Below, in pieces: positions 17,864-42,486 of a DNA stretch of 44,789 nucleotides. The notes below the pieces were generated by a model that saw only the letters and a list, made by a program, of their open reading frames with translations, did no database searches and was not told the DNA's origin. The DNA is from a phage: sequence record PZ379181.1. One strand, 5' to 3'. The first letter of the stretch is position 1. Every line of letters begins with the position of its first letter. Both the position numbers and the translations under genes were made by a program.

Positions 17864-17886
17864 AAAAAAACCCTCCGTAGAGGGCG
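17864..17886 (-). terminator. Rho-independent terminator after major capsid gene
   Basis: CCCTCTACGGAGGG hairpin followed by T7 on minus strand. Confidence 0.75.
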
Positions 17887-18037
17887 ATTTATTAGGCGTA
17901 GGTAATGCCCTTCAGTACTGATACAGTTAGCGGCCTATAGATGATCAAGCCCGTCGCTTTAGAGGTTACCGGGTACTTGAAATGCAAATCCTTCGGCTGG
18001 CCAGGTAGCACGTTCGTCACTTCCGGAATCTCAATAC

Positions 18038-18832
18038 TCAGGTTGAGCGGATTTTTTCAAATGCCAGTGCAGCTTTGCCACCAGCACCGTCGTAGTTATC
18101 CAGGAATTGCAGATAACGCAGAGTGATGCCGGAGTTATTGGTTGCAAACAACTGCGCGTAGCTGATAGAGGTGTTCGGCACCAGTTCTTGCATCAGGCGG
18201 CGAGCGGAAGCAGGCAGCAGGATATCAGTCGCGGTGTGAGCACCATTGGTAGCTGTTTCGATAGCATCGATAAGCGCTGTGATATCAGTCATAGCAGCAG
18301 CCGCGGAGTTCCAAGTACCAGCAACAACCTGGTTAACGTTCGGCGCATTGAATACGCCAGGAATGCCGTGCGGTGCAGAGCCAGACCATACCAGTTTATC
18401 GAGCAGGTTGTCATGAGCTTCAAAAGCCAAAGCCTGTTTACGAGCTGACAGTGACTGACCAGTTGCTGCGCCAGCTTTGATTTCGTCGGTGGAAATCAGG
18501 AACGCGTTACCAAAACGGAAAACTTTGCCTTGCTTCTCGGTCATGAACGCATCAACCAGCGGAAGGTCATCAGAGTAATCAGCGATAATCTGTGCGATTG
18601 CCGTTCCGTCAAACTCAGGGTACTCAAAATACTTTGCATGGGCCGGGATTTCGTTAGTTACTGGGAAGATATTAACTACGGAGTTTTCCGGATATTCTGC
18701 TTCGTACGCACGCGCCAGGTTGGCGGTCAACTGCTTGACGGTCCAGATACCAGCAGCATCAGCTTTATCTACACCCATTTGCTCAAGGTGAGCGGTGATT
18801 TTTGCTTGTTCTGCATCAAATTTAATGGCCAT
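18038..18832 (-). CDS. Major capsid protein
   Basis: 264 aa; strong terminator downstream; position after scaffold/protease and decoration-like genes. Confidence 0.65.
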   Translation of the reverse strand: MAIKFDAEQAKITAHLEQMGVDKADAAGIWTVKQLTANLARAYEAEYPENSVVNIFPVTNEIPAHAKYFEYPEFDGTAIAQIIADYSDDLPLVDAFMTEKQGKVFRFGNAFLISTDEIKAGAATGQSLSARKQALAFEAHDNLLDKLVWSGSAPHGIPGVFNAPNVNQVVAGTWNSAAAAMTDITALIDAIETATNGAHTATDILLPASARRLMQELVPNTSISYAQLFATNNSGITLRYLQFLDNYDGAGGKAALAFEKIRST

Positions 18833-30373: not shown

Positions 30374-30521
30374 AATCTAGCGTGGTAGGCGTGTATGATT
30401 CTTCGGAAGCGCACCTCATATACACACCATAACTTCGATAACGTGTATATCCAAATTGGCTCAGCAAGAATCAAAATCAACTTGTATGGTAGTCCATCCA
30501 CCATTCATTCACCCCACATCG

Positions 30522-30622
30522 ATCATTGCAAATTCTGCAACAATCAAAAACATCATTGCATTCGATGCAATATTGCTATATGTGCAATAATGAGATGAAT
30601 CATTGCAATAGCTGCAACAATC
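30522..30622. repeat. Iteron-like cluster of seven TGCAA/CATTGCA sites
   Basis: ATCATTGCA x3 and TGCAA(C/T)AAT(C/G) x4 within 100 bp, both orientations. Confidence 0.6.
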
Positions 30623-30637
30623 TATAAATCCAACGAA

Positions 30638-30652
30638 TAGCACTTTTTGCTA
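30638..30652 (+). promoter_or_regulatory. TAGCA-N5-TGCTA operator/promoter module (plus-strand operon)
   Basis: TAGCActtttTGCTA followed by TATGTATTCATCGAAACGG. Confidence 0.5.
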
Positions 30653-30883
30653 ATGCACAATCATTAGTAAGTTGCTACTATGTATTCATCGAAACGGTGC
30701 TGGACTCTGAGTCACTTCCGAAAGGAACCAAAAGAGTGAACGACACCGCGCAATGTGAGGAAGCGTTACCTTACCCACCAAAGCGCCTTGCGGGTCCTTT
30801 TGATAGGATGCCGGGCCGGGTTTAAAATCCCGAGTTGTAGTGAGTACGTTGAAGAGATTTCGATAACAAGAAAACATAGAGAG

Positions 30884-32021: not shown

Positions 32022-32411
32022 ATGACTACTACGATAACCAAAAATTTCATTAGCAACGACAACAAGCTATTTAAAGCTCGCGTTAAAAAGATTCACCAGT
32101 GGGTTAACGGTGTCGCTGAGGAAGTTGAATTTGAGCAAATCAAAAAAGACGGCAAATGGATCAACCTGGAAGAACGTGGAAAATACATTAAAACCAAAAC
32201 TCTTTACTGCACAAAGGTTAACCATAAGTCTGGCGTTAAGAAAGACTTCAAAGAAGGTAAGCGATACCAGGTCAACATGCATAGCGGACTTGGTCAGTCA
32301 GCTGGATACATTTACGATGAAGATGGCAACGCCTGGCAGCTATATCGCAGCGAAGATGTTGGCTTTTATACGTTGTGTGAAACTTACCACTTTGAGGCTC
32401 AATACAAATGA
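32022..32411 (+). CDS. hypothetical protein (129 aa)
   Basis: ATG start. Confidence 0.45.
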   Translation: MTTTITKNFISNDNKLFKARVKKIHQWVNGVAEEVEFEQIKKDGKWINLEERGKYIKTKTLYCTKVNHKSGVKKDFKEGKRYQVNMHSGLGQSAGYIYDEDGNAWQLYRSEDVGFYTLCETYHFEAQYK

Positions 32412-32578
32412 AATTATACATTGTAAGTGGTTGCACACACTATGATGGAAGCGAAGTGATTGCCGCTTTCGATGAAGAATTCAAAGCACAGGAGTTTAAA
32501 TATAACAAAGAAATATCTTCAGAAAATCACTTTGACTACTACAAGATAGATTGCATCTTACTAAATAGCACTAATTGA
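32408..32578 (+). CDS. hypothetical small protein (56 aa)
   Basis: ATGA overlap upstream; stop inside operator motif. Confidence 0.3.
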   Translation: MKLYIVSGCTHYDGSEVIAAFDEEFKAQEFKYNKEISSENHFDYYKIDCILLNSTN

Positions 32579-35730: not shown

Positions 35731-35758
35731 AAAAAAGGGGAGCCAAAAGGCCCCCCGC
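35731..35758 (-). terminator. Hairpin plus T-run upstream of lysis cassette
   Basis: GGGGGGCCTTTTGGCTCCCC then TTTTTT on minus strand. Confidence 0.55.
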
Positions 35759-36014: not shown

Positions 36015-36568
36015 TTAGCAATTCGTGCTATTTATTACGTGCATTACCAAAGCAGAGGTTCCATCAATATCACCATCTACAACATGAACGTCAATTTCTC
36101 TTGCGCAGACACCGCGAATGTAGGAGCGGCTATCTCCATCAAAAGTATAGCCAGGCCTAAAAAGTCTAATCAAAGTAACTTCAACCCCTGAATCAATGAG
36201 AGTATTAATCTCGCTAGCGAAGCCACCATCAGCACAGATATAGCAACCATCACCAAGTGATTGCGCTAGCCTTTTACCGAAAACATCATCACCAAAGACT
36301 GGCTTCATAACTGACTCACTAATCCAAATCATAAATTCACGAACCGTCATTCCACCAAGAAATTCATGTGGTGATTCTTTGTACTCTCGGTCATCGTAAT
36401 TCTTAATAAATTCATCAAACTCATCGCTTGATAGTATTCCTTTTGCAACATTAAACATTGGTGACTTGAATGAAACCTTATCCTTGCAAATTCCAAGATT
36501 AACAATGATATCTGCAACTGTATCTTTTCCAGCACCAGGGGTGCATTAAGGATGATTAACTTTTTCAT
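36015..36568 (-). CDS. dNMP kinase-like P-loop kinase, frameshifted
   Basis: N-terminus MKKLIILNAP; P-loop PGAGKDT and the rest of the protein are in the -1 frame after a 4-nt run (plus-strand GGGG 36538-36541); resembles T4 gp1 dNMP kinase. Confidence 0.55.
36016..36030 (-). promoter_or_regulatory. TAGCA-N5-TGCTA operator/promoter module
   Basis: TAGCAattcgTGCTA; contains the kinase stop codon; hairpin GCCGGAGTAATCCGGC and CATAAT at +23. Confidence 0.55.
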
Positions 36569-36569
36569 T

Positions 36570-37043
36570 TTATTCTCCGTGAGATTCGCAGTCTTTTGGT
36601 AATTCTTTATATTCACAAACTGACATTACAGTATATCCGCAATTCCTTAGGTGACTGATAACATTAGGATTATCCTCAAAGATTATCACACTTGCTTTGT
36701 CACCATTACACAAATCATTTAGCCACATCTCTTTAATGATATAGTCATTTCTGTTATCCAATCTACTCCTCATATATATTCCATCATAATTAATATTATT
36801 ATACTGAAGCCATTCAAGCGTCATACATTCGACTTCGTCACTTCTTGAAGTCATGATGTAAACTGGCGATAACTCAGCTAACGCATTCATCATGTTTATC
36901 ATTGGAATTATCGGTGAATCTCCAGAACAGGCTCTATTGTAATCACTCCAACTTGAAGTCAAGTGAAGGTCACTAGATGGTAAGAGGTGGCTTCTATGTT
37001 CATTGTTAGCAATAGTTCCATCAATATCAAACACGTAAATCAT
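36570..37043 (-). CDS. HAD-family phosphatase
   Basis: 157 aa; N-terminal FDIDGT motif (DxDGT); ends 1 nt before kinase start. Confidence 0.65.
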   Translation of the reverse strand: MIYVFDIDGTIANNEHRSHLLPSSDLHLTSSWSDYNRACSGDSPIIPMINMMNALAELSPVYIMTSRSDEVECMTLEWLQYNNINYDGIYMRSRLDNRNDYIIKEMWLNDLCNGDKASVIIFEDNPNVISHLRNCGYTVMSVCEYKELPKDCESHGE

Positions 37044-37101: not shown

Positions 37102-37116
37102 TAACAAAAAATGCTA
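37102..37116 (-). promoter_or_regulatory. Operator/promoter module (TAACA variant)
   Basis: TAACAaaaaaTGCTA; hairpin GCCTCAAAGGATTGAGGC; RBS GAGGAG before ATG 37043. Confidence 0.45.
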
Positions 37117-42435: not shown

Positions 42436-42486
42436 ATAATTGGATGTGCCATAATCGGTACATCCTTTTTTATTGGAGAGAAGAAA

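What the first reader, a model, noticed from the sequence alone, without database searches (positions are those of the whole stretch)
36015..36568. dNMP-kinase-like gene needs a -1 shift in a 4-nt homopolymer to encode its P-loop
From ATG 36568 the frame reads MKKLIILNAPLVLEK and stops early. Shifting -1 at the CCCC run (plus-strand GGGG 36538-36541) gives MKKLIILNAPPGAGKDTVAD and a continuous ~183-aa protein resembling T4 gp1 dNMP kinase. This is a sequencing error, a true inactivating mutation, or (less likely) recoding.
Basis: seen in the sequence. Interest (0 to 1): 0.55.

Follow-up and report, generated by a model that had tools for sequence, protein, structure and literature searches.

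The report
Homopolymer sequencing error breaks kinase gene
A T1-like coliphage gene for a small nucleotide-kinase-type protein looks broken only because one C is missing from a run of five, almost certainly a base-calling error, since the same assembly also breaks its essential capsid gene in the same way.

Summary
On the minus strand, ATG 36568 opens a gene whose frame is broken at CCCC (36541-36538). Adding one base restores a 184-aa P-loop protein. Every relative examined is intact there, including a contig 99.8% identical over 953 nt whose only gap against the window is this run (CCCCC). Closest protein relatives read CCT CCA or CCC GCT, so no slippery site is conserved. There is no X XXY YYZ heptamer and no downstream structure. 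dN/dS in the cut-off frame is 0.08-0.18. The same window carries a second 1-nt homopolymer contraction (A7 to A6, 18057-18052). It truncates the essential major capsid protein from 313 to 264 aa, while the two halves are 100% identical to an intact capsid protein elsewhere. Several intergenic runs are also one base shorter than in close relatives. Best explanation: homopolymer under-calling in this assembly (about 0.87). A true recent knockout of a dispensable gene comes second (about 0.10) and recoding last (about 0.02). The protein belongs to PHROG 139 with T4 gp1 dNMP kinase, and its model's best PDB match is 1DEK. This is ordinary and of low interest.

The parts
36015..36568 (-). dNMP-kinase-like P-loop gene (PHROG 139). 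As written it is split into a 73-codon out-of-frame N-terminal ORF and a 175-codon -1-frame body. One added base gives a 184-aa protein.
   Evidence: sequence and translations; 79-87% identity to five annotated 184-aa orthologues; more than 120 intact homologue clusters, best 97%; PHROG 139, E=6e-42.
36538..36541 (-). CCCC run where one base is missing. Near-identical relatives have CCCCC. More distant ones have CCTCC, CCCGC or CCAGC.
   Evidence: L015 (99.8% identical over 953 nt) differs from the window by a single gap, at this run.
36575..36578 (-). GGAG Shine-Dalgarno sequence 6 nt upstream of ATG 36568. It lies inside the end of the upstream gene, so the expression signals of the broken gene are intact.
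   Evidence: sequence CACGGAGAATAAAATG. SU57 and OzMSK records annotate an RBS at the equivalent place.
36570..37043 (-). Upstream gene for a HAD-type polynucleotide kinase/phosphatase (157 aa). It is intact. Its TAA stop (36572-36570) sits 1 nt before the kinase ATG, so the two genes are tightly coupled.
   Evidence: ORF; the exact product occurs on 8 other contigs, Pfam PF25109 HAD_PNKP, always followed by an intact 184-aa gene where the contig extends far enough.
36015..36458 (-). Longest ORF a gene caller would find in the kinase frame (147 aa from internal ATG, MFNVAKG...). It lacks the P-loop.
   Evidence: No gene with exactly this product is on record elsewhere.
17892..18832 (-). Major capsid protein gene with a second frame break in the same assembly. 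As written it yields 264 aa instead of 313.
   Evidence: The two halves are 100% identical to the intact 313-aa capsid protein of ERR6460395 (L016).
18052..18057 (-). A6 run inside the capsid gene. The nearest relatives have A7 (TTT GAA AAA AAT CCG).
   Evidence: L020 is 99.5% identical over 1684 nt, and L016, L017 and L019 are 95.4-97.6% identical. All four have A7, as does the more distant L018 (90.0%).

Best explanation
The frame break is an artefact of sequencing or assembly. A run of five C (coding Pro-Pro in NAPPGAGKDT) was called as four. The phage, a Braunvirinae (T1/Rtp-like) coliphage, most likely encodes a normal 184-aa P-loop kinase of the T4 gp1 dNMP-kinase type. That gene would be translationally coupled to the upstream HAD polynucleotide kinase/phosphatase gene. 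Shown: the window is one base short relative to all relatives, the cut-off frame is under purifying selection, and the same assembly has another homopolymer contraction in an essential gene. Inferred: the missing base is absent from the record rather than from the phage DNA.
For: (1) Five annotated relatives have five nucleotides where the window has four, and all have an intact 555-nt gene. (2) Contig SRR10499980_42425 (L015) is 99.8% identical to window 37477-36526, with 1 mismatch and 1 gap. The gap is this run, CCCCC against CCCC. DRR502069 and SRR32022333 also read CCCCC. (3) 123 homologues have E<=0.001 in a 5.8-billion-protein search. The 22 closest (60-97% identity) are full-length, 21 of them 184 aa and one 198 aa. 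The only truncated hit among the stronger matches is P0032. The window's truncated 147-aa product is on record nowhere. (4) dN/dS of the repaired frame against five relatives is 0.08-0.18, including the part downstream of the break. The frame was therefore being selected until essentially now. (5) A six-frame comparison with 10 related loci finds exactly two real genes with frame switches, this one and the major capsid protein. The capsid break is A7 to A6 relative to contigs 90.0-99.5% identical, and both halves match an intact 313-aa capsid protein at 100%. A phage lacking the C-terminal 49 residues of its HK97-type capsid protein should not be viable, so that break is very probably an error, which shows that this error process operates in the assembly. 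(6) At the other isolated 1-nt gaps in or beside homopolymers, the window is the shorter sequence: 4708, 17871, 22659, 35731-35737 and 42466. The one exception is 37106. (7) The window has 2 runs of 7 or more against 31 runs of exactly 6. Three relatives together have 22 against 77 (Fisher p=0.03-0.04). (8) Homopolymer indels that create false frameshifts in phage assemblies are well documented (PMC10438801; PMC8785237).
Against: No reads are available, so the missing base cannot be shown to be absent only from the record. A run of 4-5 C is short for classical 454, Ion Torrent or Nanopore homopolymer errors, which worsen with run length. The total number of isolated 1-nt indels against relatives (8-9 per comparison) is close to that between other pairs of related phages (6-12), so the assembly is not grossly error-ridden. 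The gene module is dispensable, because phage phiA2-1 lacks both the PNK and kinase genes. A real knockout would therefore be tolerated.
Confidence: 0.87

Rival explanations
1. This is a genuine, very recent 1-nt deletion by replication slippage in the C5 run. It knocks out a non-essential kinase gene in this phage isolate. The phage would then make a 73-aa nonsense peptide and possibly a P-loop-less 147-aa fragment.
For: The PNK plus kinase module is absent from the related phage phiA2-1, so it is dispensable. Homopolymer slippage is a common natural mutation. The overall count of isolated indels is no higher than between other relatives.
Against: There is no further decay. dN/dS is 0.08-0.18 and there are no extra stops or indels in 175 codons. 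A 99.8%-identical contig is intact. No other genome or metagenome contig carries the break. The same assembly has the same kind of lesion in the essential capsid gene, which cannot be a viable mutation.
Confidence: 0.1
2. This is programmed recoding. A -1 ribosomal frameshift or transcriptional slippage at the C run would yield the full-length kinase from the sequence as written.
For: The required shift is -1 and lies in a short homopolymer. The start codon, Shine-Dalgarno sequence and coupling to the upstream gene are intact.
Against: The zero-frame context A CCC CUG is not an X XXY YYZ heptamer. A P-site tRNA-Pro slipping -1 would have to pair with ACC. Four C is far below the run lengths known to give transcriptional slippage (established knowledge). 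The 106 nt from the site onward fold no better than shuffled sequence (z=+0.53). Neither the break nor the homopolymer is conserved: the closest protein relatives read CCT CCA, and others read CCC GCT or CCA GCT. All homologues are encoded in one frame.
Confidence: 0.02
3. The functional product is the P-loop-less 147-aa protein started at internal ATG 36458, and the N-terminal part is dispensable.
For: An ATG-initiated ORF of 147 aa exists.
Against: N8, P10, G14, K15 and D16 of the P-loop are invariant across 62 aligned homologues. No database protein has this truncated form. A kinase fold without its Walker A motif cannot bind ATP (established knowledge).
Confidence: 0.01

Closest known systems
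Bacteriophage T4 gp1 deoxynucleoside monophosphate kinase (PDB 1DEK) and the PHROG 139 family
   Same: Both have an N-terminal Walker A loop directly after strand 1 (NAPPGAGKDT here, SGVKRSGKDT in T4). Both match the same part of the PHROG 139 profile: positions 82-260 at E=6e-42 for the repaired protein, and 83-261 at E=1.8e-65 for T4 gp1 as I recalled its sequence. The AlphaFold model of the 97%-identical orthologue (pLDDT 93) has 1DEK_A as its best PDB match, with E=5.8e-6 and TMq 0.66.
   Different: The protein is 184 aa against 241 aa for T4 gp1, with only about 18% identity in the structural alignment. A profile of 62 homologues does not find 1DEK by sequence at E<=1. No Pfam family reaches its cut-off. 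Substrate specificity is untested. The next-best fold matches are adenylate, shikimate and gluconate kinases, so 'nucleotide or small-molecule kinase' is safer than 'dNMP kinase'.
Annotated dNMP kinase or ATPase of T1-like phages (TLS Gp14, T1p62-like, ACG-M12 gp15, TR1 ATPase)
   Same: These are orthologous genes in the same position, between the PNK/phosphatase gene and the small DUF7244 gene with the lysis cassette. The TLS reannotation calls its counterpart a dNMP kinase with an N-terminal GXXGXGK motif (PMC11447400).
   Different: All of those are intact. Only the window's copy has the one-base gap.
Homopolymer indel artefacts in phage genome assemblies
   Same: This is a one-base length change in a mononucleotide run that splits a conserved gene. 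It is found by comparison with homologous phages, and more than one occurs per assembly (PMC10438801; PMC8785237).
   Different: Not shown at read level here. The C run is short (5 to 4).
Programmed -1 frameshifts of phages (lambda G/GT, T7 10A/10B)
   Same: A -1 shift would be needed at both broken sites of the window.
   Different: Those sites have conserved slippery heptamers and are conserved among relatives. Here the relatives are in frame, and there is no heptamer and no stimulator.

Membership tests
T4 gp1-type dNMP kinase (PHROG 139) | Significant match to the family profile over most of its length | tested here: met
   The repaired 184-aa protein matches phrog_139 at E=6e-42 over residues 1-179. 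T4 gp1, with its sequence recalled from memory, matches the same profile region at 1.8e-65.
T4 gp1-type dNMP kinase (PHROG 139) | N-terminal Walker A / P-loop GxxGxGK[T/D] following strand 1 | tested here: met
   PPGAGKDT is present, but only in the -1 frame or after repair. G14, K15 and D16 are invariant in 62 homologues. As literally written, the gene does not join the P-loop to a start codon.
T4 gp1-type dNMP kinase (PHROG 139) | Fold of T4 dNMP kinase (P-loop nucleotide kinase core with lid) | tested here: met
   The model of P0001 (97% identical, pLDDT 93.2) has 1DEK_A as its best PDB match, with E=5.8e-6 and TMq 0.66.
T4 gp1-type dNMP kinase (PHROG 139) | Curated Pfam or PDB sequence-level membership | tested here: inconclusive
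   No Pfam-A family is above its cut-off; the best is AAA_18 at 15 bits against a 29.4-bit cut-off. The profile search of PDB sequences does not retrieve 1DEK at E<=1.
T4 gp1-type dNMP kinase (PHROG 139) | Phosphorylation of dNMPs to dNDPs | not testable with these tools
   This needs an enzyme assay.
Programmed -1 ribosomal frameshift site | Slippery heptamer X XXY YYZ in the zero frame | tested here: not met
   The zero-frame context is GCA CCC CUG, giving the heptamer A CCC CUG.
Programmed -1 ribosomal frameshift site | Downstream stimulatory RNA structure | tested here: not met
   The MFE is -18.7 kcal/mol against a shuffle mean of -20.4, z=+0.53.
Programmed -1 ribosomal frameshift site | Frame break conserved in relatives | tested here: not met
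   All relatives are in one frame, and the homopolymer itself is not conserved.
Homopolymer sequencing/assembly artefact | One-base length difference in a mononucleotide run relative to near-identical sequences | tested here: met
   C4 against C5 in L015 (99.8%), L012 and L013.
Homopolymer sequencing/assembly artefact | Further events of the same kind in the same assembly, including in genes that cannot be broken | tested here: met
   The capsid gene has A6 against A7. Intergenic runs at 17871, 35731-35737, 42466, 22659 and 4708 are shorter in the window. Runs of 7 or more are depleted.
Homopolymer sequencing/assembly artefact | Reads or resequencing show the longer run | not testable with these tools
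   No reads or platform information are available for the window.

The most novel reading that the evidence does not exclude
The four-C sequence is real, and the phage still makes some full-length kinase by low-efficiency, non-canonical -1 slippage at CCC-C. That would be a newly arisen, leaky recoding event tuning expression of a nucleotide-kinase gene. The A6 site in the capsid gene would have to work similarly, through tRNA-Lys slippage on A AAA AAU.
Probability: 0.015. Interest if true: 0.4.

Novelty: not a real feature. Interest (0 to 1): 0.07.

Why it matters
Mainly as quality control. The record should be corrected or flagged at 36538-36541 and at 18052-18057 before annotation. Otherwise a conserved kinase gene and the major capsid gene will be annotated as fragments or pseudogenes. 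If reads were to prove the four-C state real, it would be a minor example of loss of a dispensable nucleotide-metabolism gene in a T1-like phage. Nothing here bears on an open biological question.

Tried and rejected
(1) An exact-pattern scan of IMG/VR viral contigs for the site with 4 or 5 C found no match. (2) I looked for the window's own record through its truncated products. The 147-aa kinase fragment and the 264-aa capsid fragment are not on record. The 176-aa cement/decoration protein also had no exact match. (3) A sequence-profile search of PDB with 62 homologues gave only generic P-loop hits and did not find 1DEK. The fold search was needed. (5) Recoding was considered and rejected for lack of a heptamer, a structure and conservation. 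(6) A +1 slip on CCC-C was considered. It leads to the wrong frame (UGG UGC UGG AAA AGA ...), which soon terminates, so it was rejected from the sequence itself. (7) The genome-wide comparison of isolated 1-nt indels against ES, TR1 and phiA2-1 showed only a modest excess of 'shorter in window' (6:3, 6:1 and 7:1, against 4:2, 4:3 and 5:7 in controls). This is supportive but not decisive on its own. (8) Other apparent frame switches at about 4700, 17900, 30500, 35800 and 37100 come from spurious or antisense ORFs crossing intergenic indels, not from genes.

Full report
**What the window is.** The window is a T1/Rtp-like siphophage of E. coli (Drexlerviridae, Braunvirinae). The nearest deposited genomes are Escherichia phages ES and AN_ECEAS, at 88.8% identity over the 801 bp around the finding and 90-92% over the larger blocks, followed by the Christensenvirus phages TR1 and TR2. 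The local gene order on the minus strand is as follows:
- a 377-aa metallophosphatase-like protein
- a HAD-type polynucleotide kinase/phosphatase (36570-37043)
- the gene in question (36015-36568)
- a small DUF7244 gene
- holin, endolysin and spanin

**The observation.** It is correct.
- The ATG is at 36568, preceded by GGAG at 36578-36575. The upstream gene's TAA stop lies 1 nt before the ATG.
- The sequence then reads AAT GCA CCC CTG GTG CTG GAA AAG. The CCCC run is at 36541-36538.
- Frame 0 gives MKKLIILNAPLVLEK..., continues for 73 codons and stops at 36349-36347.
- The -1 frame is open from 36539 to the TAA at 36017-36015 and starts PGAGKDTVAD.
- The -1 frame has a TAA three codons upstream of the P-loop and no start codon until ATG 36458. 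The P-loop cannot be translated without a shift.
- One added base gives a 184-aa protein.

**Comparison with relatives.**
- Five annotated relatives (ES, TR2, SU57, OzMSK, ACG-M12) all carry an intact 552-555-nt gene. They have five nucleotides where the window has four: CCCCC, CCCGC or CCAGC.
The 22 closest (60-97% identity) are full-length, 21 of them 184 aa and one 198 aa.
- The closest protein relatives (P0001, 97% identity) are encoded as GCA CCT CCA GGT, with no homopolymer at all.
- The exact product of the neighbouring PNK gene occurs on eight other assembled contigs. One of them, SRR10499980_42425, is 99.8% identical to window 37477-36526. It differs by one mismatch and one gap, and the gap is this run: CCCCC there, CCCC here.
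- Contigs from DRR502069 (95.9% identical over 6.5 kb) and SRR32022333 also read CCCCC.
- The window's truncated 147-aa product is on record nowhere.

**Selection.** With one base restored, dN/dS against five relatives is 0.08-0.18, both for the whole gene and for the part downstream of the break. There are no other stops or indels. The cut-off frame has therefore been under purifying selection up to the present. The break is either extremely recent or not real.

**Recoding.**
- The zero-frame context A CCC CUG is not an X XXY YYZ heptamer. A -1 slip of the P-site tRNA-Pro would land on ACC.
- A +1 slip on CCC-C enters the wrong frame.
- Four C is far too short for transcriptional slippage (established knowledge).
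- The 106 nt from the site onward fold no better than shuffled sequence (z=+0.53).
- Neither the break nor the homopolymer is conserved.

Recoding is therefore not supported.

**A second break in the same assembly.** I compared six-frame ORFs of ten related loci with the window. Only two real genes switch frame: this one and the major capsid protein.
- The capsid ORF (18832 to 18038) ends after 264 aa at ...ALAFEKIRST. The remaining 49 residues lie in the -1 frame, down to 17892.
- The nearest contigs read TTT GAA AAA AAT CCG (A7). These are SRR32022307 at 99.5% over 1684 nt, DRR232302 at 97.6%, and ERR6460395 and ERZ27253577 at about 95.5%. The more distant SRR32022333 contig (90.0%) also reads A7.
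- The window has A6 at 18057-18052.
- Both halves of the window's capsid protein are 100% identical to the intact 313-aa protein of ERR6460395.
- The repaired protein aligns full-length in a single place, covering at least 80% of the query, in 1254 phage records.

A virulent siphophage cannot propagate without the C-terminal 49 residues of its HK97-type capsid protein (inference from established knowledge). That break is therefore almost certainly an error in the record.

**Other homopolymer differences.**
- Against the closest contigs, the other gaps are also one-base contractions in the window at or beside runs: 17871 (a C next to T7, or T7 against T8) and 35731-35737 (T6 against T7 or T8).
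- Against TR1, ES and phiA2-1 the same holds at 42466 (T6 against T7), 22659 (A5 against A6) and 4708 (A3 against A4).
- The single counter-example is 37106.
- The window has only 2 runs of 7 or more against 31 runs of exactly 6. ES, TR1 and phiA2-1 together have 22 against 77 (Fisher p=0.03-0.04).
- Isolated 1-nt indels are biased towards 'shorter in window' at 6:3, 6:1 and 7:1. Control pairs give 4:2, 4:3 and 5:7.
- The absolute number of such events is small, so the assembly is good apart from a handful of under-called runs.

False frameshifts of this kind are a documented problem in phage assemblies (PMC10438801; PMC8785237).

**What the gene encodes.**
- The repaired protein matches PHROG 139, 'deoxynucleoside monophosphate kinase', at E=6e-42.
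- T4 gp1, with its sequence recalled from memory, matches the same region of that profile at 1.8e-65.
- Pfam gives nothing above its cut-offs, and a profile search of PDB sequences gives only generic P-loop hits.
- The AlphaFold model of the 97%-identical orthologue P0001 has mean pLDDT 93.2. Its best PDB match is T4 dNMP kinase 1DEK_A (E=5.8e-6, TMq 0.66, 18% identity), followed by adenylate, shikimate and gluconate kinases.
- Across 62 homologues the invariant residues are N8, P10, G14, K15 and D16 (P-loop), R77, S84, E85, K89, D114, G116, E120, D146, S147 and R148.
- The TLS reannotation calls the T1-like counterpart a dNMP kinase with an N-terminal GXXGXGK motif (PMC11447400).

Activity is untested. 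'P-loop nucleotide kinase of the T4 gp1 type' is the supported description.

**Dispensability.** Phage phiA2-1 has two small unrelated ORFs in place of the PNK and kinase genes. The module is therefore not essential. This is why a true knockout cannot be excluded from sequence alone.

**Verdict.**

| Explanation | Probability |
|---|---|
| Sequencing or assembly under-call of a C5 run | about 0.87 |
| Genuine recent deletion in a dispensable gene | about 0.10 |
| Recoding | about 0.02 |
| Functional P-loop-less product | about 0.01 |

The finding is ordinary and is useful mainly as an annotation and quality flag, together with the capsid-gene break at 18052-18057.

Noticed in passing
window 17892-18832 (-), A6 run at 18052-18057: The major capsid protein gene is frame-broken, giving 264 aa instead of 313. 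The cause is an A7-to-A6 contraction relative to contigs 90.0-99.5% identical. Both halves are 100% identical to an intact capsid protein elsewhere. This is almost certainly an error in the record and should be corrected.
   Followed up: yes
window 17871, 35731-35737, 42466, 22659, 4708: Intergenic, terminator-like mononucleotide runs are one (in one case two) bases shorter in the window than in close relatives. The direction is the same as for the two coding breaks. The single opposite case is at 37106.
   Followed up: partly
L011 (phiA2-1, OR861626.1) 32056-32492: This related phage lacks both the HAD-PNK gene and the kinase gene and has two small ORFs (52 and 65 aa) in their place. The two-gene module is therefore an exchangeable, dispensable cassette within Braunvirinae.
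   Followed up: partly
L001 (phage ES, OR466728.1) locus 2168-2715: In the ES record, only a 64-aa CDS is annotated where the 157-aa PNK/phosphatase gene is expected, leaving about 350 nt unannotated. Many ES product names also look misassigned, such as 'tail tip protein' for the 57-aa DUF7244 gene. ES may have its own frameshift or annotation problem.
   Followed up: no
window 36570-37043 / 36015-36568 (-): The HAD-type PNK/phosphatase gene and the kinase gene are separated by a single base (TAA A ATG), with the kinase Shine-Dalgarno sequence inside the PNK gene. The pair is adjacent in every relative that has either gene, which suggests a coupled nucleotide-salvage or end-processing function.
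   Followed up: no
window 30430-30660: This stretch is conserved against unannotated regions of TR1 and phiA2-1 and has several compensated 1-nt indels. It corresponds to the region TR1 annotates near its pac site, and it is probably non-coding.
   Followed up: no
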